Of a stretch of DNA of 20,000 bases, positions 2 to 19,935 are shown piece after piece. Under the pieces are notes generated by a model. That model was not told where the DNA came from, did no database searches, and saw nothing but the letters and a program-made list of their open reading frames with translations. The stretch lies in the IMG/VR virus record IMGVR_UViG_3300044675_001378; one strand, given 5' to 3'. The DNA comes from an uncultured virus (IMG/VR IMGVR_UViG_3300044675_001378). Its lineage: Duplodnaviria > Heunggongvirae > Uroviricota > Caudoviricetes. The translations under genes and the position numbers were made by a program. Each line of letters starts with the position of its first letter. Within the stretch, counting starts at the first letter, position 1.

Positions 2-1621
2 GGCCATAGGCACGGAGATGGGCGCTGCTGCCTTGCTGTAAATCTTGCCAGCGAAGACGTAGGTATCGTCCTCTTGCCAGCCATAGTTTGATGGCACTTT
101 AACGGCTGCCTTACCGGTACTTGCTTGTTCCACGCATGCCCTCACATATTCAAAAAGGTTTTTGTCATTACCAGCGCCAAAGGAGGCGATGATGTTTTGT
201 TGAGCCAGTGCTTTGACTGTCTCGTCTTTGCTCACCACCGCTCTTTGCGGGATGGTGATTGTTGCTGGGCCTTCTGGCCGCAGCGCTAGCATGTGAACAG
301 TGTGTTCACCGCCGCTGTTCAGGATATCCACCACGAACAGATCGTATGGCAACAACATCACCTGCTTCTTGGTTGTTTTGCCGTCAGCATCTTCCATCGA
401 CTTTTCGGAAAACACGCCGCCCTTGCTGCCGTAGCCGAACCCACGCGGAGGCGTAGGACGCAGCAGTTTCTTGACCTCGGGCGCGATGCTAGGGCTTTCC
501 GATGGGATAACGATTTCGATTTCTTTCTCAGCCACGTCCATTTCAATCACACGGCCAAGCGCAAGCGGGTTGGTGATCTTGCCAAAGTGTTGACACCCGT
601 CACAGCCGCCCGGGTTCTCGCTCTCAAACTTCACGCACGGGTACGGCCCCTTGATCTGCGCCTGCTTTTCACGCATGCGCTGCTCGTCGTAGGGATGCAA
701 CCCACTGAGCCACGCCGCTGCACGCTCGCCGTCCGAACACTTCTGGGCAATGCTCAGCCAGCCACGCCACAAGGGCTCCATGCCGTCCTCTTCGGCGTTC
801 TCTACGAAGTGCTTGAGCTGAGCGCAGCCGGTGCCGTTCTTGGTCTTCAGGAAGATCGTGCCGAACTTGGTCGTGCTGTTCTCAAACAACTTGGCTCCGG
901 CCATCGTAGTCGGCACTGCTGGCGCTGCATCTGGGCGCTTCCCCGGCAGGCTCAACGCAGACGTTGCCGCTGCTGGAGCCGTCGTAGTTAGCTTGGCTGC
1001 AATGGCTTGGCTGATGGTGTCAAAGTTAAAGCGGTCGCCCTCGGTCAGCAGCTTGACTTGCTTAGGCTCCCCGTACTTCCACGAGCCATCCTCTTTGTTC
1101 TTCTTAAAGTTGAACGTGTTGGGGATCCGCAGCACCCGTGCAGCGTCTGCTGTCACAGTCATGTCGATGTTGAGCTTTTGCTGCTTGCACAGGCGCTTCA
1201 AGTTCTCGGCAGTGGGCTTCCACACAGCCACATCGATGTCTTCAGTGAACGGCCAGTAGCAGTGCAGCCCGCCGCCAGAGAACACGATCCACGGAGCGCC
1301 CAGCGCATCCAAGCCAGTTTCGGCAAGGAACGCACCGAGTGCCAGCGCAGCCTGCTTCTTGGAAGCGTAGCCGTCCATGTCGATGAACAGGGATTTGATG
1401 GAGCGAGCGTTCTCTGCCGTGCGCTTGCCCGATGTCTCGAACGATGCCAGTGCGAAGTAAACGTCCTGCTGTGCCTCGACCCAGTTGTCTACGGCAGGGT
1501 AAAAGTCTTCCAGATTCTCGACATACCGGTGCTCTTTCTTTTTTGTGCTCAGTTCCGCCGCGCAGTACAACCCGTTATCCGGGGACGGCAAAACCACCGC
1601 AAGGAATTCAAGCGGGTTCAT
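2..1621 (-). CDS. Primase/replication protein: N-terminal AEP (RepB-like) primase, Cys-containing primase C-terminal region, probable DUF927 region; 3' end runs off the window
   Basis: Absent from the ORF track (no stop within the window). Manual translation from ATG at 1621 (SD AAGGA): MNPLEFLAVVLPSPDNG...SLFIDMDG (AEP motif I DxD)...WIVFSGGGLHCYWP (motif II)...DAARVLRIP (motif III)...EPLWRGWLSIAQKC...GPYPCVKFESENPGGCDGC. Confidence 0.85.
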   Translation of the reverse strand, partial: MNPLEFLAVVLPSPDNGLYCAAELSTKKKEHRYVENLEDFYPAVDNWVEAQQDVYFALASFETSGKRTAENARSIKSLFIDMDGYASKKQAALALGAFLAETGLDALGAPWIVFSGGGLHCYWPFTEDIDVAVWKPTAENLKRLCKQQKLNIDMTVTADAARVLRIPNTFNFKKNKEDGSWKYGEPKQVKLLTEGDRFNFDTISQAIAAKLTTTAPAAATSALSLPGKRPDAAPAVPTTMAGAKLFENSTTKFGTIFLKTKNGTGCAQLKHFVENAEEDGMEPLWRGWLSIAQKCSDGERAAAWLSGLHPYDEQRMREKQAQIKGPYPCVKFESENPGGCDGCQHFGKITNPLALGRVIEMDVAEKEIEIVIPSESPSIAPEVKKLLRPTPPRGFGYGSKGGVFSEKSMEDADGKTTKKQVMLLPYDLFVVDILNSGGEHTVHMLALRPEGPATITIPQRAVVSKDETVKALAQQNIIASFGAGNDKNLFEYVRACVEQASTGKAAVKVPSNYGWQEDDTYVFAGKIYSKAAAPISVPMA

Positions 1622-1636: not shown

Positions 1637-1819
1637 TTACGCGAACAGGTCGAGTTGCTTTTCGTCGCGGACGGGGTATTCGTTGATAACGGCGAGGCGG
1701 CAGAAGCGGGAGTACAACTCAAACTGAACGTCGAGCGGGAAGCCCTCTGCTGTCCAGATGTTGTCGCAGTGCAAGATCAACTCGCGGTTGCTCAGGCTTG
1801 AAGGTTGTAGTGTTGACAT
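1637..1819 (-). CDS. Small hypothetical protein (60 aa, MSTLQPSSLSNRELI...QLDLFA)
   Basis: Internal ATG at 1819 of ORF 1637..1999, preceded by GGA; fills the gap between the HTH and primase genes and overlaps the end of the HTH gene. Confidence 0.7.
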   Translation of the reverse strand: MSTLQPSSLSNRELILHCDNIWTAEGFPLDVQFELYSRFCRLAVINEYPVRDEKQLDLFA

Positions 1820-2070
1820 ATTTTTTTCCATGCCTCGTCGGCAGAGCGTGAAGTTTGAAGGAATTTGAGCAGCGTTTCTACGCGGTGCTCGTACGCAGGA
1901 AAGATGTCTCCGCCTGCGAACCAGTTGTATGCGGTCTGGCGTGTAACGCCTAGCGCTTTGGAGATGCGAACGACAGAGAAGTCGTGGTGAACTGCCCAAC
2001 GTCCGAGCTGATTGCCCGGAGTCTTCGGCGCACGCATAACCATGTCGATTGTTTTTTGTGAGTAAGCCAT
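1792..2070 (-). CDS. Cro/XRE-like helix-turn-helix DNA-binding protein
   Basis: SVVRISKALGVTRQTAYNWFAG matches the HTH pattern (A/S-x-x-LGV-S/T-R-Q-T-x-Y-x-W); lies upstream of the primase. Confidence 0.8.
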   Translation of the reverse strand: MAYSQKTIDMVMRAPKTPGNQLGRWAVHHDFSVVRISKALGVTRQTAYNWFAGGDIFPAYEHRVETLLKFLQTSRSADEAWKKICQHYNLQA

Positions 2071-2080
2071 AGTGTTCTTA

Positions 2081-2179
2081 AAGGTGGGGGTACTCGCTGC
2101 GTCTGTGCCTTACTGGTTATTGCCACAATTCCCTGTTACGGGTCAGAGGCATCACAGCATCCGCTTTCCCCCCGAAACT
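2081..2179 (-). ncRNA. Putative structured cis-RNA element, copy A
   Basis: Minus strand AGTTTCGGGGGGAAAGCGG...AGTACCCCCACCTT. Basal GGGGG/CCCCC stem with GAA/AGUA internal loop; inner CUG/CAG and UGCCU/AGGCA pairings. Termini are shared with 2778..2864. Confidence 0.5.
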
Positions 2180-2182
2180 TAC

Positions 2183-2467
2183 TTAGGTCTTGGCAGGGAA
2201 CAGTTGGGCCAGCACAGCCTCATACTGGGTCTTGCGGCGCTCCAGCAGCGCTACCTTGTCCAGCTTGTCCAACAGGCTCGGGAAGTTGATGTCTTCCTTG
2301 GCGCACTGCTCTTGGATGTCTGCCTCAAGGCGAATGAGTTCATCGTCCAGCTTGGCCATCTCTAGCTCAGCTTGGCTGCGAACCTTGCGTGCTCGGATGG
2401 GTGCCAGTGCTTCGGACAGTTTCTCCTTGGACATGGCGATGATTTCTGCGAATGGTTTGAGTTTCAT
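2183..2467 (-). CDS. Hypothetical coiled-coil protein (94 aa)
   Basis: SD GGAGA; start overlaps the upstream stop; helical, charged sequence. Confidence 0.8.
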   Translation of the reverse strand: MKLKPFAEIIAMSKEKLSEALAPIRARKVRSQAELEMAKLDDELIRLEADIQEQCAKEDINFPSLLDKLDKVALLERRKTQYEAVLAQLFPAKT

Positions 2468-2763
2468 AATGTTTCTCCTGTGAGTAAAAGTTTGTTGTCT
2501 GGTTTGTTGAGGAATGCCAACGGGCTTTTTGGATCGTGTTTTGGTTTTTGGCTCTGTTCCTGACTCATCTGACCGAAAAGTGCTTGGCCTCCCTGTATGT
2601 GCCCGAAGCCTTGTTGCACGTACATCTGCTGCTGCTGTATGAGTCGGCGGTAGTCTTCCTCTTTCATGTGGCGAAGCTGCATCTCACGCTCGTGCTCGTA
2701 CCTCTCTCGCTCAAGATATACGTCACGGTTGGCATCGTAAAGCTGGTTCGTTGTTACTGCCAT
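2464..2763 (-). CDS. Hypothetical Gln-rich protein (99 aa)
   Basis: SD AAGGAG before ATG; coupled to the downstream gene. Confidence 0.75.
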   Translation of the reverse strand: MAVTTNQLYDANRDVYLERERYEHEREMQLRHMKEEDYRRLIQQQQMYVQQGFGHIQGGQALFGQMSQEQSQKPKHDPKSPLAFLNKPDNKLLLTGETL

Positions 2764-2777
2764 GTCTTTCTCCTTGT

Positions 2778-2864
2778 AAGGTGGGGGTACTGACGGTGCT
2801 CTCCTTGTGACGGCACCAGTTTATTGGTAGAGAGCGAGGCGACTCCCGCGTTCCCCCCGAAACT
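2778..2864 (-). ncRNA. Putative structured cis-RNA element, copy B
   Basis: Minus strand AGTTTCGGGGGGAACGCGG...CCGTCAGTACCCCCACCTT. Same basal stem and GAA/AGUA loop as copy A; inner GCGG/CCGU and GCUCUC/GAGAGC stems. Confidence 0.5.
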
Positions 2865-2866
2865 AA

Positions 2867-3838
2867 TTATTCGTCATCCCAGTCGGCAACGACATCGGCC
2901 AGCGCTTTCTTGCCGGGCACAGCCGTTGGCTTTGCCGCTGCTGCCTTCTTCACGACTGGCTCTTCGTCTTCCTCGGGCGCTTCGACCACTGGGGCTGGCT
3001 TGGCCTTGGCTTTAGCCTTGGGGGCTGGTGCGGGGGCTTCGTCTTCCTCGGGCTCTTCGACCACTGGTGCGGCCTTGGCCTTCGGCGCTGCACCCTTGAG
3101 CGCATCAGCAGGCTTGCCCATGTCCATACCAGTGGAGTCCATCGTGATGGCTTTCTTGGCTTCGGCGGTGTCGCCCTGCTTGGTGGCTTCAGCGAACTCG
3201 TCATCAGTCAACCAGCGCATGGCCTTGAAGAACAGCTTGGGGGACTCGCTGGCAGTGTCGAACTTCATGCGGGTCACAACAGTGCTCGGGTCAACGCCTT
3301 GGGCCACGAGCCAGCGTGCGTACGCTTGCAGTGGGCGGTTGTCGCCTTCGTCCTTACCGAAGATCGAGGTGGCTGGCAGGGATAACTGCATCACATCGCC
3401 TTCGATGTTGTTGGCCAAGACGACTGCCAAGCGCTGCTGGTAACGGCAAGCGCGGGTATTGCCAGTACCGGAACCGGCCACGTTCTGTGGGCAGGCTGCG
3501 CAGGTGTCGGACTGTTTGTTCTTGCTATTGGAGTCTGGTGTGTCGCCATCGTTGGACTGACAGTCAGGTTTGGCGGCGGTTGCGTCCTTGTCGTACTTGG
3601 CGGCGTAGAACACACGGGCCACTTTCGGTGCGGCCTTGACGATCACCACATCGAGGAAGCGCTCATCGACTGCTGCGATTTCTTTGCCGTCAGAGATCAG
3701 ACGGAACACGCCACCTTTGATCGACACGCGTTTGCCGCTGGCACCACCACCCGCAAGGGCTTTGGCAATGTCAGACATCTCGGCCTTGCGTGCGAAGGCG
3801 GGTACTTGGGCGGGGTTAAACAGAGCTACATTACTCAT
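2867..3838 (-). CDS. Putative ssDNA-binding/recombination protein (323 aa)
   Basis: Beta-rich N-terminal domain with Cys cluster (PDCQSNDG...CAACPQN...RACR), Ala/Pro/Lys/Glu linker and acidic-aromatic tail (VADWDDE) typical of SSBs; located in the replication module. Confidence 0.6.
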   Translation of the reverse strand: MSNVALFNPAQVPAFARKAEMSDIAKALAGGGASGKRVSIKGGVFRLISDGKEIAAVDERFLDVVIVKAAPKVARVFYAAKYDKDATAAKPDCQSNDGDTPDSNSKNKQSDTCAACPQNVAGSGTGNTRACRYQQRLAVVLANNIEGDVMQLSLPATSIFGKDEGDNRPLQAYARWLVAQGVDPSTVVTRMKFDTASESPKLFFKAMRWLTDDEFAEATKQGDTAEAKKAITMDSTGMDMGKPADALKGAAPKAKAAPVVEEPEEDEAPAPAPKAKAKAKPAPVVEAPEEDEEPVVKKAAAAKPTAVPGKKALADVVADWDDE

Positions 3839-7124: not shown

Positions 7125-7630
7125 TACTTCTCCTTGCTTTCTAAGAATTCTTTGAATAGCGCATCCAACCCACCCTTAGCAAAGGTGGCTGCGTCGGCCT
7201 CCCACTCGGCTTTCTCGGTTTCGTAGCGGCGCATAAACTCCTCCCACGAAATGGCGGGCTCTGGAATCGGCTCACCTTGTTCTCTTTCGTGCCAGTGTGC
7301 CATCACAAGCTCGACGTATTCTTTGTTCAGCCCGAACGCTTCGGCAACCGTTTGCCAAACACCGTCCGCCGCTTGTGCAGCCGTAGCCGTCAGAAGGCTG
7401 TCAATCGGGGAGCCCTCTTCAAAATCCTCGGGTTCATATAAACGCGCCGCAAAAAGTCGCGCTTCATCTCGCACTTCACACCAATGTCTCGGCCCTGCTT
7501 TGTCAAAGTAAACGTGCATTGCGTCTCCAATATCGACTTCGGCTTCGTCATCGTCGTACTCGTTTAGGCTCCAACGAATTATGGTTTCAAACACCTCGTC
7601 CTTATCTTGCTTGTGGTACGGTCTCTTCAT
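7124..7630 (-). CDS. Hypothetical acidic helical protein (168 aa)
   Basis: SD AAGGAG; stop overlaps the next start; no recognisable motif. Confidence 0.75.
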   Translation of the reverse strand: MKRPYHKQDKDEVFETIIRWSLNEYDDDEAEVDIGDAMHVYFDKAGPRHWCEVRDEARLFAARLYEPEDFEEGSPIDSLLTATAAQAADGVWQTVAEAFGLNKEYVELVMAHWHEREQGEPIPEPAISWEEFMRRYETEKAEWEADAATFAKGGLDALFKEFLESKEK

Positions 7631-14466: not shown

Positions 14467-14752
14467 TCAGCTCCTCCGGTATCTCAATGTCATTGCCAAG
14501 TCGGCTTGCTACATAACAGCGCATGGCTGCGATCAGGGGTGTTGGGCCGGGGTGTTCGATCACGCCACGCCATGCAACCCAGCGTGTGAGGTGCCAAGCT
14601 GTTGCGATCTTCTCCCGCTCAATGATCGGGCCGCCTTGCTCCCAAGAGCTTGAGTACCAGTCCCAATTTTCTTGTCGCACGATGATCTCTACACCCTCAC
14701 ACTTCGCCACTGCCCAATCAAGGGCGGCACCTGTCAGTTCATCTGTTTTCAT
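14459..14752 (-). CDS. DUF2591 / NinX-family phage protein (97 aa)
   Basis: ELTGAALDWAVAKCEG, YSSSWEQGGPIIERE, GPTPLIAAMRCYVASRLG. Confidence 0.8.
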   Translation of the reverse strand: MKTDELTGAALDWAVAKCEGVEIIVRQENWDWYSSSWEQGGPIIEREKIATAWHLTRWVAWRGVIEHPGPTPLIAAMRCYVASRLGNDIEIPEELNV

Positions 14753-15018
14753 TTGTCTTCTCCTTGGTCGATATAGATGTTGTCGGCCACTGGCCCGATG
14801 CGGGTGCGGTGCTTGACCTCGCAGTTGCTGTTCATCATCCAGCAAGCTGTCTCGATGGCATCGCGCACATCCTCCATGATGGAAAACCCAGCGCCATGCC
14901 GAGGCTCGTCAACACTGAACACTGTGGTTATGTAAACTCCTCCGAACTTCCAAGCCTGCTCCCAACTGTCGTAGTTGCTGGCGTTGTACATCTCAATGAA
15001 CGTGTGTTTCTCAGTCAT
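14749..15018 (-). CDS. Hypothetical protein (89 aa, MTEKHTFIEMY...)
   Basis: Internal ATG at 15018 with SD AAGGAG; ATGA overlaps at both ends. Confidence 0.7.
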   Translation of the reverse strand: MTEKHTFIEMYNASNYDSWEQAWKFGGVYITTVFSVDEPRHGAGFSIMEDVRDAIETACWMMNSNCEVKHRTRIGPVADNIYIDQGEDK

Positions 15019-15185
15019 TTGCTTTCTCCTTGGTCGATGTAGTGCTTGATGCGCCAGAGCATCTCTTGCATGCCTTCCCATGCAACGCGACTAGGGGGCG
15101 TTCCGTCTATACCGCGCTGCACAGTGTTTAGCATCACATCGACGTACGTTTCGATCACGCCTTTGGATATGGTTATCTTGATCAT
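15015..15185 (-). CDS. Small hypothetical protein (56 aa, MIKITISKGVIETY...HYIDQGESK)
   Basis: Manual translation; SD GGGAG; abuts the upstream stop. Confidence 0.65.
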   Translation of the reverse strand: MIKITISKGVIETYVDVMLNTVQRGIDGTPPSRVAWEGMQEMLWRIKHYIDQGESK

Positions 15186-15428
15186 TTACTTCTCCCATTT
15201 AAGGGTTGTGCCGCTGCCGCTGTAGTTGCAGAGGTCGTAGTTGGTCATGACTAGCTGCGTAAGGGTGTAGGGGTCTATGTCCCGCCCACTCAAATAGTGG
15301 CCCAATAGTATCGAGCCGTTGATGTGTCGGCTCAGGTCAGAGAACATAACCTCCTTCTCGTGTACTTCGGCAACCATGCGCTGCCCATGTTCGTCATACC
15401 CTCGGCCTGTGTTCCATTGATGTTTCAT
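15186..15428 (-). CDS. Hypothetical protein (80 aa)
   Basis: SD AAGGAG directly after the conserved hairpin. Confidence 0.75.
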   Translation of the reverse strand: MKHQWNTGRGYDEHGQRMVAEVHEKEVMFSDLSRHINGSILLGHYLSGRDIDPYTLTQLVMTNYDLCNYSGSGTTLKWEK

Positions 15429-15440
15429 TTACTTCTCCTT

Positions 15441-15473
15441 AAAGCGCAGCCTGAGTCGGCAGGCTGCAAACCG
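15441..15473 (-). repeat. Conserved intergenic hairpin, copy 1
   Basis: Minus strand CGGTTT-GCAGCCTG-CCGACT-CAGGCTGC-GCTTT. Confidence 0.7.
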
Positions 15474-15504
15474 TTTCCAACGGTGCAAACCGAAATGACA
15501 CCCG

Positions 15505-16611
15505 TCAGACTTCGCAGTGAACTGTGTCGAACAGAGACAGCAACACAGTATCGGCATCGTAGACAGCGCAGTCAGACATCGCACGCTGCAACACCTCGTC
15601 AGTGAGCATGCGCTTGTTGAGGAACTTGAGCGCCATCATGGGGTCTTCTGGGTACGCCGCCTCTGCGATCATGTCGAGCAGGTCGTGATACATCCCACGC
15701 ATGGCATCGCGCAGTGCGTCCTCCAGCATGTCGTTGTCCGTGTACCCGTAGGCGCTGGCGTCAGACCACTTGCCGTCCCATGAAGTCAGGCTGGTCGTGC
15801 TGTAGTAACTCTTCCAGTCCATCAGGGGCAGCTTCTCGATGACTGTCGGGTCACGCCCCACGGGCAGGGCATCCCACTTGATCTTGACGGCCGCAGCAGC
15901 CAGCGCTGTGAAGTGGAAGATGTCCAGAGTCTCGCGGTCTGAGTGCTCGTTGTCGTAGCCCACGCTGATGTTGGTGCATTCGGGGATGATGTCAACGAAC
16001 TCGGCAGTGTCGGTGTACACACCTGTGTCATCGCCCAGATACATCAGCACGCCGTCAGCACACAGCTCACCGGACAGTGCGTCAGCGAACTCATCAGAGC
16101 AGCACCTGCCCCACCCCTGATGCGTGATAACGCTGTCGATGCCGCGCCTGTCGAACGCAATGGCACGATCAAAGCAGGCCAGCAACTCGGGGCTGTGGTC
16201 GGCAAGGTACTTAGCACCGATACCCCCGCGCTCCTCGCCCTGCGTGAAGATGTAGTACGCCGGTACACCAGCATGCAGCATGTGCATCAGCATCGCGCAA
16301 CCCGCACCATCGTCAGCACCAAGGGGCGCACCATCGGCATACCACTTGCCTTGAGTCTTCCTGATCTTGTTGGCACCTGTCTCACGATGCACTGTGTCCA
16401 CATGGGCTACGAACAGCGTGCGGTTGGTGTCGTCGAGTCGTGCGTCTACATGCAGGTTGCCCACCTTGTCATAGCTGACAGCGATGTGCTTGCGCTTGGG
16501 TATGTGTGAGTGCAGCCAGTCCGTGAACTCGATGACTGCGCGTGTGCCGTGTGGCCGCTTCATTGACAGGGCGCGTGATAGCGTCTTGCAGAGTATTGAT
16601 TTCTTGTTCAT
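15505..16611 (-). CDS. M28/M20-clan (MH) zinc-dependent peptidase/amidohydrolase (368 aa)
   Basis: Metal/catalytic motifs in the canonical order: AHVDTV, LGADDGAG, GEERGGIG, AFDRRG, NISVGYDNEH; acidic helical C-terminal extension. Confidence 0.85.
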   Translation of the reverse strand: MNKKSILCKTLSRALSMKRPHGTRAVIEFTDWLHSHIPKRKHIAVSYDKVGNLHVDARLDDTNRTLFVAHVDTVHRETGANKIRKTQGKWYADGAPLGADDGAGCAMLMHMLHAGVPAYYIFTQGEERGGIGAKYLADHSPELLACFDRAIAFDRRGIDSVITHQGWGRCCSDEFADALSGELCADGVLMYLGDDTGVYTDTAEFVDIIPECTNISVGYDNEHSDRETLDIFHFTALAAAAVKIKWDALPVGRDPTVIEKLPLMDWKSYYSTTSLTSWDGKWSDASAYGYTDNDMLEDALRDAMRGMYHDLLDMIAEAAYPEDPMMALKFLNKRMLTDEVLQRAMSDCAVYDADTVLLSLFDTVHCEV

Positions 16612-18065
16612 GTTGATTCCTTGATTGTTACTGTGGTTGGTTCAATGGACAGGCACGCATCCCGTACGGGGCATGGCTCGACTTCTTCTGGCTCGGGTAC
16701 ATAGTCCTCGTGGTACATGTTGCCGTCAATCTCGACAGGTGCATCGTCATCGTACAAGTAGAAGTTGCCCGACCCTTGGCACTCCCATGTCTCGTCAAGC
16801 AGCGCCCACTCGCCATCGTGTAGCTCTACGCAGTTATCGCGCAGTTGGTAGTCGCCCACATGGTCACAGACAATCGCATCGTCATCGCAGTGATACCACT
16901 CGTCACCAACACTGACCGCATCATCCATCGAGCAGTACTCGCCGTTCTCAAGCTCCACGATGCCGTTGTCACTGAGGTAGTCGCGGTCGTAGTAAGTGCC
17001 GTCAACCTCCACGGCGTCATCGTTGGGCACATAGTAGTCGTTGCCCCTGCGCCCAGTGACATGCGTGTACTCGTCGATGCAGCATTCGCCAACGACATGA
17101 TCGTCGTATATACCTGTGCCGCGCTGCTCGTCCTCACTGATGCGCTGGCCACAGTCCGCACAACTGCATGCGTTCTGCTCAGTCGCAGTGCCGTTTTGAT
17201 TACTGCACTGCCAGTCACCACTGCTCGTGATGCGTAGATACTGTCTGTATGTGCCGTCAGGCATGCGCTCGTTCTCAATGTCAACATCCTGCGTCCCGCC
17301 GTCGATGTAAGGAGCGATGAAGTCGCAGTCGCTGTGCCCGCTCTTGATGTACGCCAGCCGCTCCCCCTTCCATTCGTTGCGCTTCTCGTACCCCTGCGAA
17401 TGTAGCCACTGATGCAGCTCGTCATCGGGTTGCGAGTACCGCTCACCATCCTTGTGCCGATAGGTACGCACGAAGTACTTGGGGTTGCTCTCTAGGTTGT
17501 CCCGTTGCATGAGTAGCGCACGACCCACGATCTGATGCCCCAAGCGGCGGGTTGCCACATGCCAGCCGTAGCACGGCGCGTACACCTCGTAGGGATGCGC
17601 CCCGAGTTCATCAAGCTCGTTGCGATCTCCCTCCTCGTTCTCATCGAACTTCATACATGAGGCGGGGCCATGTTGCACAGCACGCACGATGGCCTCAGTG
17701 GTGCGCTCGATGTGAAAGCTAGCCGCTGTAGCGTACTTGGCTACGAAATCCCTTATGTGATGGTCTGCCATGCGCGGCCAGTGTTGCTTGATGTACTTGC
17801 CCAATGATGTCAGCGTCTGCCTGTCGGCCTCGCCTGCTCGCTCGTCCCGTGTGTAGGCAAGGCGGGTCACATCGGTCGTGGCCTCATGCGGCCACTCAAG
17901 CAGCAACTGTTGCCAGTCTTCGGGGTCGTGCATCTGGAACGCATCGGCCACTGCGGGGTGCAGTTCGAATCTGTTTTGCAAACTCTGATGCCACTGGCGC
18001 GAGTAGCGCACAACATCGGCGGCGTACATAAAGCACTTGGCCTTGGGGGAATATCCTAAGAACAT
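16608..18065 (-). CDS. Uncharacterised phage protein (485 aa): N-terminal globular domain, CxxC...CC element, C-terminal acidic tandem repeats
   Basis: SD AAGGAG; ATGA-coupled to the peptidase; motifs GPASCM, GRALL, YFVRTY, PYIDG; repeats DD-A-V-E-V-D-G-x-Y-Y. Confidence 0.85.
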   Translation of the reverse strand: MFLGYSPKAKCFMYAADVVRYSRQWHQSLQNRFELHPAVADAFQMHDPEDWQQLLLEWPHEATTDVTRLAYTRDERAGEADRQTLTSLGKYIKQHWPRMADHHIRDFVAKYATAASFHIERTTEAIVRAVQHGPASCMKFDENEEGDRNELDELGAHPYEVYAPCYGWHVATRRLGHQIVGRALLMQRDNLESNPKYFVRTYRHKDGERYSQPDDELHQWLHSQGYEKRNEWKGERLAYIKSGHSDCDFIAPYIDGGTQDVDIENERMPDGTYRQYLRITSSGDWQCSNQNGTATEQNACSCADCGQRISEDEQRGTGIYDDHVVGECCIDEYTHVTGRRGNDYYVPNDDAVEVDGTYYDRDYLSDNGIVELENGEYCSMDDAVSVGDEWYHCDDDAIVCDHVGDYQLRDNCVELHDGEWALLDETWECQGSGNFYLYDDDAPVEIDGNMYHEDYVPEPEEVEPCPVRDACLSIEPTTVTIKEST

Positions 18066-18093
18066 AAAAACTCCTTGATGTTTTACTTAACTG

Positions 18094-18124
18094 AAAGCGA
18101 GGGTGAGACAGCACCCTCATACTG
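18094..18124 (-). repeat. Conserved intergenic hairpin, copy 2
   Basis: Minus strand CAGTAT-GAGGGTG-CTGTCT-CACCCTC-GCTTT. Confidence 0.6.
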
Positions 18125-18126
18125 TT

Positions 18127-18142
18127 GGGGACAAATGTCCCC
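18127..18142. promoter_or_regulatory. Inverted repeat GGGGACA-AA-TGTCCCC
   Basis: Perfect 7-bp arms with a 2-nt spacer, just after the upstream stop codon. Confidence 0.45.
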
Positions 18143-18144
18143 GT

Positions 18145-18351
18145 CTACTCCTTGCCTATGAGTTCATTGCGAAGCTCGTCCATTTGTGCGAGCACCTGCT
18201 CACGAGTGCCTTTGAACCCCATCTGTTTGAGCATGGAGTAGGCGCTCGGTGAGCGGCTGCGGGACATACCTTTCATCTCCAGCTTGAGCATGGAGCGCAG
18301 TGTGAGTAGTCGAGCGCCCTCGATCTGATTGGGTGTGCTGAGTGTTGTCAT
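18145..18351 (-). CDS. Hypothetical basic protein (68 aa, MTTLSTPNQIE...)
   Basis: ATG at 18351 with SD GGAGG and ATGA overlap. Confidence 0.75.
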   Translation of the reverse strand: MTTLSTPNQIEGARLLTLRSMLKLEMKGMSRSRSPSAYSMLKQMGFKGTREQVLAQMDELRNELIGKE

Positions 18352-18530
18352 TGGCAATCCTCCGGTACTTCATCGCCAAGGCCAAACGCCTCGGCCAACT
18401 CTTGAATGGTCTGGCGGTGTGCGTCCCAGTCGTGGAAACTATCTGGACTGCCCCGCTGCTGGTAGTCCTGCAATGCGCCGCACAGGTCAGCGAGGGCGCA
18501 GCGTGCTGCGAAAGTTTGGTTCTCTGTCAT
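18348..18530 (-). CDS. Hypothetical protein (60 aa)
   Basis: SD AAGGAG; ATGA overlaps at both ends. Confidence 0.7.
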   Translation of the reverse strand: MTENQTFAARCALADLCGALQDYQQRGSPDSFHDWDAHRQTIQELAEAFGLGDEVPEDCQ

Positions 18531-18751
18531 TTGCCTTCTCCTTTGGTTGTCTCCTTCATACGCTCATTGCGGCAGTGCTCCGCGTAGAACTTGAGGAACA
18601 ACATATCGAATGTCGTCAACAACTTCTCTGCGTTCTGCGTGTCGGCCACATAGAACGCTCGGGCGATATGCTCTGCGAAGCTACCTCCCTCACGCTCCAT
18701 GCATCGGGCGGCTTGTAGCCGCATGTCGTGGTCTAAGTGCATTGCTGTCAT
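18527..18751 (-). CDS. Hypothetical protein (74 aa; MEREGGSFAEHIARAFYVADTQN)
   Basis: ATGA overlaps at both ends; SD AAGGA. Confidence 0.75.
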   Translation of the reverse strand: MTAMHLDHDMRLQAARCMEREGGSFAEHIARAFYVADTQNAEKLLTTFDMLFLKFYAEHCRNERMKETTKGEGK

Positions 18752-18993
18752 TTCTTCTTTCCTTTCTTGGTTTCAAAATAGCCGAGCCACTTTGTGCCCT
18801 CGACTTGGGGTTGGTACATCTTGATCTCGTAGTTGTCAGTGTGCGGTACGGGCACGAGGAACAGGTTGTACGGATAGCCGAACCCGTCCATCATCTTGAG
18901 CAGTTCCCGTAGGTCTCGCGTGTCGTTGGTTGTTACCCAGTCCGCTACGCTGGATGCGTAGAAGTGGGCGTTATCTGGCATGTTCTCGTTCAT
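18748..18993 (-). CDS. Hypothetical protein (81 aa)
   Basis: SD AAGGAG; coupled to the downstream gene. Confidence 0.75.
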   Translation of the reverse strand: MNENMPDNAHFYASSVADWVTTNDTRDLRELLKMMDGFGYPYNLFLVPVPHTDNYEIKMYQPQVEGTKWLGYFETKKGKKK

Positions 18994-19010
18994 TTGCTTT
19001 CTCCTTGTGG

Positions 19011-19277
19011 TTAAAGTGTGCAGTACCAGCGATGGGCGCTGATTCGTTTTGTCTTGAGGCGAACGCCTACTGTCTGGCGCAGGTGGCTGTTGAACATCTT
19101 GACCAACACAGACTCAACACCGCCGCTTGGCATGGTGCGTAGCTGATCGCTCTCGATGATGACAAAACCCCGCGCTTTGAGCGTCTCGTACAGGGCCTGC
19201 CAGTCATGCACCACCTTGGTAGGCACCGGGGTAGGTGCGGCGCTGAACGCCGTGTCGGGTATGTCCTCAATCCTCAT
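19011..19277 (-). CDS. Hypothetical protein (88 aa, MRIEDIPDTAF...)
   Basis: Internal ATG at 19277 with ATGA overlap. Confidence 0.7.
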   Translation of the reverse strand: MRIEDIPDTAFSAAPTPVPTKVVHDWQALYETLKARGFVIIESDQLRTMPSGGVESVLVKMFNSHLRQTVGVRLKTKRISAHRWYCTL

Positions 19278-19504
19278 TTGCTTTCTTCTAAGTGTTGCCG
19301 CACTGCGGCGTCTATGACATCCCATGTGATGCCGACATTGCAATCGAACGCACGAGCAACAAGCTCAAGCACCATCACGCAGTCATCCTCTGTGAAGTTC
19401 TCTGTCCCCTCTATTTCGTTGCACTCGATGACATTGACTACATCCTCCACGCTCCAGTCATCACGCAGAACCCACTTTTTGTTTTCTTGAACCATGTGTG
19501 CCAT
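19274..19504 (-). CDS. Hypothetical acidic protein (76 aa, MAHMVQENKKW...)
   Basis: Internal ATG at 19504 with SD AAGGAG. Confidence 0.75.
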   Translation of the reverse strand: MAHMVQENKKWVLRDDWSVEDVVNVIECNEIEGTENFTEDDCVMVLELVARAFDCNVGITWDVIDAAVRQHLEESK

Positions 19505-19515
19505 TTGTCTTCTCC

Positions 19516-19665
19516 TTAGTTGGTTGCGTTTATATCTACAAAACACTCGCTCTCGAATGAGGGGTCTACATCCGCCACTGCGCGGCGCTCCCCGTCCACC
19601 CACAAGTACACCTCGCAGTCAGGCGGCAGGTGCTTTAACTGCTCGATCAGTTCGCTTGTCTTCAT
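19516..19665 (-). CDS. Small hypothetical protein (49 aa, MKTSELIEQLKHLPPDCEVYL...)
   Basis: Manual translation; SD AGGAG; ATGA overlap with the upstream stop. Confidence 0.7.
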   Translation of the reverse strand: MKTSELIEQLKHLPPDCEVYLWVDGERRAVADVDPSFESECFVDINATN

Positions 19666-19922
19666 TTGCTTTCTCCTATTGTGAAACTGTGGATAGGCTC
19701 GGGCAGGTTGTCCACCCAGTCGGCGGGGTATGCGTCCACATGCAGGTCTGTTTCCTCTTTGGCGTGGCCTGAGACTTCACTCCCCGACAAGTTGATGTCG
19801 TAGCCTCCCCAGACCACCCAGTCCTCGACTCCGGCCAGCGTTGTGCCGTAGAAGGCACGATCAGTGGTAAGTCCCAAGCGGTAGCCCTCGCAGAAGGCAC
19901 GCAGTTCGTTCAGTGTTTTCAT
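19662..19922 (-). CDS. Hypothetical acidic protein (86 aa)
   Basis: SD AAGGAG directly after the conserved hairpin. Confidence 0.75.
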   Translation of the reverse strand: MKTLNELRAFCEGYRLGLTTDRAFYGTTLAGVEDWVVWGGYDINLSGSEVSGHAKEETDLHVDAYPADWVDNLPEPIHSFTIGESK

Positions 19923-19935
19923 TTGTCTTCTCCTT

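What the first reader, a model, noticed from the sequence alone, without database searches (positions are those of the whole stretch)
2081..2864. Two-copy structured intergenic element with a conserved GGGGG-GAA / AGUA-CCCCC basal stem and variable interior
Seen: 2081-2179 and 2778-2864 both read (minus strand) AGTTTCGGGGGGAAnGCGG...AGTACCCCCACCTT. Each starts just after a stop codon and ends just before a translation start. The interiors differ in sequence but both can pair extensively (A: CUG/CAG, UGCCU/AGGCA, CCC/GGG and AUUG/CAAU hairpins; B: GCGG/CCGU, GCUCUC/GAGAGC, GAG/CUC and CCA/UGG hairpins). Known: GAA opposite AGUA is the signature of the bulged-G (sarcin-ricin/loop E) RNA motif, often a protein-binding or tertiary module. 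Inference: a phage cis-regulatory or processed RNA family acting in the SSB-to-primase part of the replication operon. I do not recognise it as a named family.
Basis: partly seen in the sequence, partly recalled or inferred. Interest (0 to 1): 0.72.

Follow-up and report, generated by a model that had tools for sequence, protein, structure and literature searches.

The report
Phage RNA cassettes with swappable cargo
The two repeats belong to a large, uncatalogued family of phage RNA cassettes that often sit right behind the gene for single-stranded-DNA-binding protein, keep a constant base that ends like a tRNA, and carry interchangeable folded tips, so they are probably small RNAs cut out of the messenger by the host's tRNA-trimming enzyme.

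Summary
Real, and much larger than two copies. The basal stem covaries strongly around an invariant GAA/AGUA loop, although single-sequence folding is unremarkable. The stem is followed directly by RCC in 71 of 113 independent copies versus 3.8 expected, with G at +1 and an A/U-rich leader: the signature of bacterial RNase P substrates. Tips are hypervariable (160 tips, 135 clusters), yet single tips, including both of this window's, recur in other frames and gene contexts and in tandem arrays. 58 of 109 copies follow SSB-type genes of several kinds. No Rfam hit; no target in the phage's own genome, no reverse transcriptase, no integrase. Best reading: carrier-plus-cargo small RNAs released from SSB mRNA by host RNase P. 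Cleavage and cargo function are inferred, not shown. This scan noted what is probably the same family before on other DNA (e1-6233237).

The parts
2867..3838 (-). gp32-like single-stranded-DNA-binding protein, 323 aa, acidic WDDE tail; the gene whose 3' end carries the cassette slot
   Evidence: ORF; AF2 model of residues 1-240, pLDDT 70; best structural matches phiC31 RDF Z 8.5, BRCA2 OB 6.8, T4 gp32 6.3, RB69 gp32 6.0; no Pfam hit; Foldseek gave nothing at E<=0.001. SSB is a likely, not proven, assignment.
2780..2858 (-). Cassette B, predicted mature RNA of 79 nt: G+1 at 2858, 5-bp basal stem (2858-2854 with 2787-2783), GAAC/CAGUA loop, GCGG/CCGU helix, cargo, ACC end at 2782-2780
   Evidence: the ends are predicted from family conservation, not measured
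2797..2845 (-). Cargo of cassette B: conserved AG(U/A)CGCCUC segment, covarying 6-bp helix, UAC/GUG hairpin, CCG..AAG segment
   Evidence: found in 30 of 32 scan hits in five different carrier frames; 88.4% paired, covariation 0.301 vs 0.128, 0 of 500 shuffles, 21 sequences
2464..2763 (-). 99-aa unknown ORF, first gene of the insert between the two cassettes
   Evidence: no Pfam or PHROG hit; absent behind the cassette in relatives such as L130, L133
2183..2467 (-). 94-aa helical unknown ORF, second gene of the insert; its homologues in L128 and L227 are followed by the core frame with other tips
   Evidence: Atlas best score 0.82, a lead only
2083..2173 (-). Cassette A, predicted mature RNA of 91 nt: G+1 at 2173, 5-bp basal stem (2173-2169 with 2090-2086), GAAA/GAGUA loop, GC/GC, GGA bulge, UG/CA, ACG bulge, CUG/CAG, tip, ACC end at 2085-2083
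   Evidence: 68.3 bits with model R1, which was built with this copy included
2106..2154 (-). Cargo (tip) of cassette A: three-way junction with a CCC/GGG hairpin of variable loop
   Evidence: same tip in 10 of 12 aligned loci, 7 flanking contexts, 4 basal stems
1792..2070 (-). 92-aa helix-turn-helix gene directly after cassette A, without a recognisable Shine-Dalgarno site
   Evidence: weak HTH_23 hit below cut-off, E 3.6e-4; sequence
2..1621 (-). primase/polymerase-like gene further downstream (runs off the window)
   Evidence: PHROG 2478 E 3e-7, PHROG 10514 E 9e-5

Best explanation
Each copy is a two-part RNA cassette. The carrier is a 4-6 bp stem that starts with G, follows an A/U-rich leader and ends in unpaired RCC, capped by a bulged-G (loop E) motif and, in the commonest type, a fixed GGA-bulge helix. 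The cargo is an interchangeable folded tip. Shown: the structure, the conserved ends, the exchange of cargo between carriers, the tandem arrays, and the position behind SSB-type genes. Inferred: (1) the cassette is co-transcribed with the SSB mRNA, which is probably abundant; (2) host RNase P cuts 5' of G+1, anchored by the RCC end, with the stacked stem, loop E and 2-bp helix placing the GGA bulge about 11-12 steps from the cut, where a tRNA elbow would lie; (3) a cut in the A/U-rich spacer and 3' trimming free a stable 60-110 nt RNA and also separate SSB from the downstream genes; (4) the cargo acts in trans on a host protein or RNA as a decoy, mimic or aptamer, which would explain its diversity and optional presence; (5) recombination through the constant flanks swaps tips and produced the B-ORF99-ORF94-A arrangement.
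For: Covariation: basal pairs 98/98/98/89% paired vs 51/64/74/60% shuffled, 116 distinct copies; 90.3% vs 73.0%, score 0.404 vs 0.113, 0 of 500 shuffles, 75 sequences. Ends: RCC after the stem in 83 of 116; in a second collection 71 of 113 vs 3.8 shuffled, and 41 of 62 among stems that are not G-runs; +1 is G in 76 of 83 and 80 of 82. At the SSB slot of relatives, all 21 long elements end in RCC and 0 of 4 minimal hairpins do (34 of 39 loci readable). RCCA pairing, G+1, hairpin model substrates and the 12-bp measure are described in passages of PMC11143913, which also lists pre-4.5S RNA, phage M3 RNA, C4 RNA and T4 gene 32 (SSB) mRNA as RNase P substrates. Tandem copies with short U-rich linkers in L010, L163, L209, L223 and L407, L434, L451. 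Cargo under selection. RNA and strand: G-U 15 vs A-C 5; 7-nt T-loop hairpins in 5 of 135 tips vs 0.5 shuffled and 0 on the reverse strand; same-strand stop within 15 nt in 72 of 103, while the opposite strand has a stop within 80 nt in only 11.
Against: No cleavage or RNA end was observed: only contigs were available, and one B-like contig reads from the SSB stop through the element. The base after RCC is mostly U (ACCU 52 of 83), so a CCA end would need repair. About a quarter to a third of copies lack RCC. The basal stem is only 4-6 bp, not 7, and most tips have no T-loop. G+1 is partly compositional, because the 5' strand is G-rich. The core pairs GC/GC and UG/CA hardly vary and were fixed by the search patterns, so they are not independently supported. 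No target or binding partner of any cargo was found. Copies are related, so counts are not independent events.
Confidence: 0.55

Rival explanations
1. Purely cis element: a processing or stabilising structure that sets the ratio of SSB to downstream HTH/primase expression, or helps the downstream start that often lacks a Shine-Dalgarno site; the tip only needs to fold.
For: Tight spacing to the upstream stop (72 of 103 within 15 nt) and a downstream ATG (67 of 103 within 30 nt); the same slot holds plain GC-rich hairpins in 4 relatives and in cultured phage Rollin; SSB mRNA processing matters in T4 (passages of PMC3014915).
Against: Invariant unpaired cargo sequences kept across carriers; tandem arrays and copies followed by a separate terminator with no gene to regulate; 9 of 34 relatives have nothing in the slot. 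Not exclusive with the best reading.
Confidence: 0.23
2. The constant core is a handle for another factor (RNase III as at T7 early sites, or a host or phage RNA-binding protein that reads loop E and the GGA bulge), and RCC has another role.
For: The core is nearly invariant in sequence: the exact 14-mer GAAAGCGGATGCTG is in 57 of 121 loci of a scan that did not ask for it, which suggests sequence-specific binding. A 4x5 internal loop is also a feature of T7 R1.1 (recalled).
Against: Above the loop the helix is broken into 2+2+3-5 bp pieces, too short for RNase III (recalled requirement of about one helical turn); this reading does not explain G+1 and RCC, which persist in carriers without loop E.
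Confidence: 0.1
3. Single-stranded DNA element: an attC-like recombination site for gene cassettes, or a replication or primosome signal near ssb.
For: Two copies flank a two-gene insert; conserved base with a variable tip resembles attC architecture (passage of PMC5737381); association with SSB genes as for STAXI (passage of PMC2864571).
Against: No tyrosine recombinase in 5 of 5 records, 3 of them at least 90% complete; loop E, T-loops and UNCG loops (9 vs 3.6) are RNA features; strictly on the sense strand; dispensable in relatives; DNA folding z only -0.56 and -1.18.
Confidence: 0.05
4. C4/CI-type antisense RNA that represses a gene of the same phage through its unpaired segments.
For: C4 is a phage RNA processed by RNase P; cargo B has two conserved unpaired segments.
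Against: The complement of the first segment occurs only at the element itself in 4 of 5 records and nowhere in the fifth; the second has no more near-matches than its control; no C4 Rfam hit. Only cargo B was tested, and the records nearest the window are 57-81% complete.
Confidence: 0.04

Closest known systems
C4 antisense RNA of phages P1/P7 (Rfam RF01695) and phage M3 RNA: phage RNAs processed by RNase P (passages of PMC11143913, PMC2864571)
   Same: Small structured phage RNA embedded in a longer transcript, with tRNA-like ends for host RNase P.
   Different: No sequence or model match; no target in its own genome for cargo B; the interior is exchangeable and hypervariable; found in phages that appear mostly lytic (3 hits in 185,579 prokaryote genomes), behind SSB genes.
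pre-4.5S RNA and hairpin model substrates of bacterial RNase P (passages of PMC11143913)
   Same: Long hairpin with G+1 and an RCC end, no cloverleaf needed.
   Different: Basal stem of 4-6 bp followed by a bulged-G loop; no SRP match in Rfam; hundreds of different tips.
T4 gene 32 mRNA as an RNase P substrate; T4 RNA C and RNA D (passages of PMC11143913, PMC3014915)
   Same: Links RNase P to a phage SSB message; stable small phage RNAs of unknown role.
   Different: T4 control of gene 32 uses a 5' pseudoknot and RNase E sites; here a defined cassette sits at the 3' end. RNA C and D come from the tRNA region, whereas these cassettes rarely lie near tRNA genes.
UG27 reverse-transcriptase ncRNA arrays (bioRxiv 10.64898/2026.09.22.753630, passages)
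   Same: Phage arrays of RNAs with a constant frame and sequence-diverse hairpins, gained and lost as modules.
   Different: No reverse transcriptase in 5 of 5 records tested; different conserved motifs.
STAXI motif (passage of PMC2864571)
   Same: Structured motif near genes for single-stranded-DNA-binding proteins.
   Different: STAXI is a repeated pseudoknot; no Rfam match here.
pseudo-ToxI RNA mimics of phage phiTE (PMC3475682, search listing and start of abstract only)
   Same: Precedent for a phage RNA that acts by mimicking a host RNA; one cargo here is an H-type-pseudoknot-like module.
   Different: No similarity to ToxI was tested or shown; analogy only.

Membership tests
Any Rfam 15 family | match over the element at the gathering score | tested here: not met
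   window and 20, 20 and 17 related loci; only sub-threshold hits, such as the Pistol 5' half on a different cargo, E 0.32
Bacterial RNase P substrate | unpaired RCC(A) directly 3' of the stem | tested here: met
   RCC in 83 of 116 and 71 of 113 vs 3.8 shuffled; the final A is mostly absent
Bacterial RNase P substrate | G+1 paired with C, single-stranded A/U-rich leader | tested here: met
   +1 G in 76 of 83 and 80 of 82; -1 C or U in 69 of 83; -2 A or U in 77 of 83; G+1 is partly compositional
Bacterial RNase P substrate | about 12-bp stacked acceptor plus T stem ending in a T-loop | tested here: inconclusive
   4-6 bp stem, loop E and 2 bp give about 10-12 stacked steps before the GGA bulge; true T-loops in only 5 of 135 tips
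Bacterial RNase P substrate | cleavage 5' of G+1 | not testable with these tools
   only contigs could be laid; no ends listed
Bulged-G (loop E / sarcin-ricin) motif | AGUA opposite GAA between two helices, invariant while flanking helices vary | tested here: met
   4x5 loop kept with a covarying basal helix; also present in many hits of cargo-only scans that did not ask for it; consensus recalled; 3D fold not tested
C4 antisense RNA | Rfam C4 match and complementary a/b target sites in the same phage | tested here: not met
   (cargo B only)
tRNA or tmRNA gene | cloverleaf with 7-bp acceptor stem and anticodon arm | tested here: not met
   ARAGORN called tRNAs in only 4 of the loci scanned, none over a cassette; a few tips carry D-arm or T-arm-like pieces (L014, L138)
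UG27 ncRNA array, retron or DGR | associated reverse transcriptase | tested here: not met
   PF00078 in 0 of 5 records, 3 at least 90% complete; a very divergent RT could be missed
Integron attC site | integron tyrosine recombinase in the element's replicon | tested here: inconclusive
   PF00589 in 0 of 5 phage records; a host enzyme in trans is not excluded; the ends do not match the attC boxes (recalled consensus)
Intrinsic terminator | short GC stem followed by a U-tract | tested here: not met
   neither copy is called; 10 of 103 copies are followed by a separate terminator-like hairpin
RNase III site (T7 type) | about one helical turn of continuous duplex beside the cut | tested here: inconclusive
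   helices of 5, 2, 2 and 3-5 bp; requirement recalled; cleavage untested

The most novel reading that the evidence does not exclude
Aquatic phages run a plug-and-play small-RNA platform: a standard handle for host RNase P, parked behind the strongly expressed SSB gene, releases any of hundreds of different folded RNAs that act as decoys or mimics against host defence or regulatory proteins (tRNA-elbow pieces, pseudoknots, aptamer-like folds), and phages trade these cargoes by recombination as they trade anti-defence genes.
Probability: 0.25. Interest if true: 0.9.

Novelty: new variant of a known kind. Interest (0 to 1): 0.68.

Why it matters
Few phage small RNAs have known functions. This family gives several hundred natural examples with sharply predictable ends, so a plain in vitro RNase P assay can test the central claim. 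It ties an RNA module to SSB genes of several different kinds, which hints at a general design rule of phage replication operons. If the cargoes act on the host, they form an unexplored RNA counterpart to phage anti-defence proteins, with at least two cargo families that are themselves uncatalogued covarying RNAs. The carrier could also serve as a compact natural scaffold for expressing stable small RNAs in bacteria.

Tried and rejected
Single-sequence folding gave no support. Rfam: four searches, nothing over the element. The window's genome is not held. blastn of the region against cultured and deposited phages found only short chance pieces; a core copy found one uncultured record, MW202879, where it is unannotated. 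Five cultured phages with related SSB genes have no full cassette in the stretches fetched. Antisense to own genes was rejected for cargo B. Anti-Shine-Dalgarno motifs are not enriched in tips (4 vs 5.5), nor UGNRA (44 vs 42.9), and GNRA only weakly (14 vs 8.6, 17 of 300 shuffles). A UUG/CAA pseudoknot in cargo B shows no compensatory change, 0 of 5 pairs; one search used a structure off by one column and is discarded. The first cargo-B scan was mostly chance, 5 real of 120. RNA libraries: four runs, contigs only; a B-like copy lies on a contig of depth 10.8 in X2 and 2 in X4, copy A is barely covered, and DNA carry-over cannot be excluded, so this is no evidence of expression or ends. Literature: nine searches found no description of this family. 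The catalogue of Fremin et al. 2023 (PMC10690425) could hold it among 8,495 unnamed candidates: its sequence files could not be searched (files 1, 2, 4 and three oversize files), and the part of file 3 that I read has no sequence column. The script machine was lost, so the second cargo family was examined only by aligning 34 of 100 loci.

Full report
Observation. The shared frame occurs twice in the window and never twice in 200 shuffles; the 14-nt 3' end is identical and has no other near-match. Folding energies are ordinary (z -0.65 and -0.96), and Rfam has nothing here. The window is a phage replication region: DNA polymerase A, PD-(D/E)XK nuclease, SNF2 helicase, a 323-aa protein, an HTH gene and a primase-like gene. 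The 323-aa protein folds like phiC31 RDF and T4/RB69 gp32 (Z 8.5, 6.3, 6.0), so SSB is likely though the scores are middling. Cultured relatives infect Proteobacteria; the host is unknown.

The family is large. A scan fixing only the core returned 120 viral loci and 120 metagenome loci, both at the limit. Prokaryote genomes gave 3 hits: one strong copy on a short contig of a betaproteobacterial MAG, one weak, one without model support.

Structure. With the basal stem left free, its four innermost pairs are 98, 98, 98 and 89% paired in 116 distinct copies, against 51-74% when partners are shuffled; the metagenome set repeats this (99, 97, 97, 93%; 113 copies, 100 not in the earlier core set). 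On an alignment of 75 sequences (this window's copy A and 74 that I chose from 161 references, favouring varied stems), 90.3% of cells pair versus 73.0%, covariation 0.404 versus 0.113, 0 of 500 shuffles; all five basal pairs show compensatory change (19 rows are shifted by one in the inner helix). The inner CUG/CAG helix also covaries. The GC/GC and UG/CA pairs and the GGA bulge are nearly invariant, and were fixed by two of the patterns.

The ends look like those of an RNase P substrate. RCC follows the stem in 83 of 116 copies; among these, +1 is G in 76, -1 is C or U in 69 and -2 is A or U in 77. In the second collection RCC follows the longest stem directly in 71 of 113, against 3.8 for shuffled tails, and in 41 of 62 copies whose stem is not a G-run, so slippage of G and C runs does not explain it. 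Passages of the review PMC11143913 describe the RCCA pairing, the G+1 pair, hairpin substrates and the 12-bp measure, and list pre-4.5S RNA, phage M3 RNA, C4 RNA and T4 gene 32 mRNA as substrates. Against this: the fourth base is usually U, and a quarter to a third of copies lack RCC.

The interior is cargo. 160 distinct tips fall into 135 clusters and fold better than their shuffles on average (mean z -0.83; 19 of 135 below -2); T-loop hairpins are enriched but rare (5 of 135 vs 0.5). Tip lengths of 24-60 nt are bounded by the search patterns. The tip of copy A recurs almost unchanged in 10 of 12 aligned loci (12 of 15 hits aligned; three near-identical phages left out) with seven flanking contexts and four basal stems. 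The interior of copy B is a conserved module of its own: 30 of 32 hits lie in five carriers, namely the full core (15), a plain stem without loop E ending in ACC (8), an unrelated ACGCAUGG-type carrier (5), a short loop-E frame (1) and one other; its central helix has compensatory changes in 5 of 6 pairs while the unpaired segments stay fixed (21 sequences). A further cargo, a pseudoknot-like module, occurs in 100 loci and is mostly closed by a G/C stem with ACC, with or without loop E (34 of 100 aligned). Cassettes also stand in tandem with short U-rich linkers.

Context. Of 103 copies with enough flank, 72 start within 15 nt of a same-strand stop codon and 67 have an ATG within 30 nt downstream; within 80 nt the counts are 77 and 75, against 11 and 20 on the opposite strand; 10 are followed by a separate terminator-like hairpin. 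By my count of C-termini, 58 of 109 upstream genes are SSB-type: 18 of this window's family, 10 DUF669-type, 5 Enc34 SSB, 2 Pam3 gp34-like and 23 small proteins ending in an acidic tail plus Phe. Pfam confirmed the DUF669, Enc34 and Pam3 labels for the members among the 54 of 96 ORFs scanned, and gave no SSB family for the acidic-tail class; reading DUF669 and that tail as SSB is recalled knowledge. Among 39 loci with a close SSB relative, 34 show the slot: 21 hold a long RCC-ended element of four kinds, 4 a minimal hairpin without RCC, 9 nothing. The element is therefore accessory, and RCC travels with cargo. Cultured Pseudomonas phage Rollin has a minimal G/C hairpin followed by GCC at the same slot, a single case.

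Mechanism. Most likely the cassette is transcribed with the SSB message and cut out by host RNase P and 3' trimming, giving 79- and 91-nt RNAs here, with the cargo acting on a host partner (0.55). Structure, ends, modularity and context are shown; cleavage, stability and action in trans are inferred. The main rival is a cis-only processing or stabilising site (0.23), which may also be true in part. A handle for another nuclease or protein (0.10), a DNA-level site (0.05; no integrase) and C4-type self-antisense (0.04) fit less well. No reverse transcriptase was found, which separates it from the UG27 arrays described in passages of bioRxiv 10.64898/2026.09.22.753630. RNA-library contigs gave no usable evidence on ends.

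Novelty. No Rfam family and no paper in nine searches describes it. It may be an unnamed entry in Fremin et al. 2023, of which I read the first fifth of the text and the head of one table and could not search the sequence files. Earlier notes of this scan describe what is probably the same family on another phage, and similar carrier-cargo designs; they are unchecked and not counted as support. It works like RNase P-released phage RNAs such as C4, but it is not a member of that family: I class it as a new variant of a known kind, with a chance of 0.25 that it is a general RNA cargo platform against the host.

Noticed in passing
L531-L630 (for example L547:480-600, L555:497-535): A second conserved cargo, GUCG-GCUCGG-CGAC then UAAAUAGCCUGUA, probably an H-type pseudoknot, with a weak match to the 5' half of the Pistol ribozyme model (E 0.32) and often a CUCCU or CUUCACA segment further on; 100 viral loci.
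   Followed up: partly
L129, L131, L132, L144, just after the SSB stop: A different long structured element (GCUGGG...CCCAGC then GCC) fills the same slot, also with G+1 and an RCC end but no loop E.
   Followed up: no
L411, L448, L484, L646, L650: Another carrier type (ACGCAUGG...CAGUCYCCAGCCGUG) stands next to the loop-E cassettes in RNA arrays and can hold cargo B; L484 also has a tRNA-Met nearby.
   Followed up: partly
L433, L478, L192, L195, directly after the cassette: A recurring conserved element beginning ACGCCAAGCCGGUAGUGGCG, without an Rfam hit in L433 and L478.
   Followed up: no
L014, L033, L282, L138, L149, L057: Tips made of tRNA pieces: D-arm plus anticodon-like arm plus T-arm without an acceptor stem, or two T-arms in series.
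   Followed up: partly
L162, L178, L180, L204, L208, L214: A second class of upstream gene: small proteins ending in a CxxCCxGxxCxTxC motif; no Pfam family for the three scanned.
   Followed up: no
window 2070 and many relatives: The HTH gene after the cassette often starts 4-12 nt after ACC with no Shine-Dalgarno site, so processing could leave a nearly leaderless message.
   Followed up: no
window 7127-7630: A forward-frame translation request on these coordinates was scanned as a 168-aa acidic ORF between the nuclease region and DNA polymerase; no Pfam hit.
   Followed up: no
window 14749-19934: Repeated gene-start sequences with strong AAGGAGAA-type ribosome-binding sites in front of many small early-region ORFs (repeat families D2-D7).
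   Followed up: no
L678:2968-2996 (Pseudomonas phage Rollin): A minimal 6-bp G/C hairpin followed by GCC directly after the related SSB gene in a cultured phage.
   Followed up: partly
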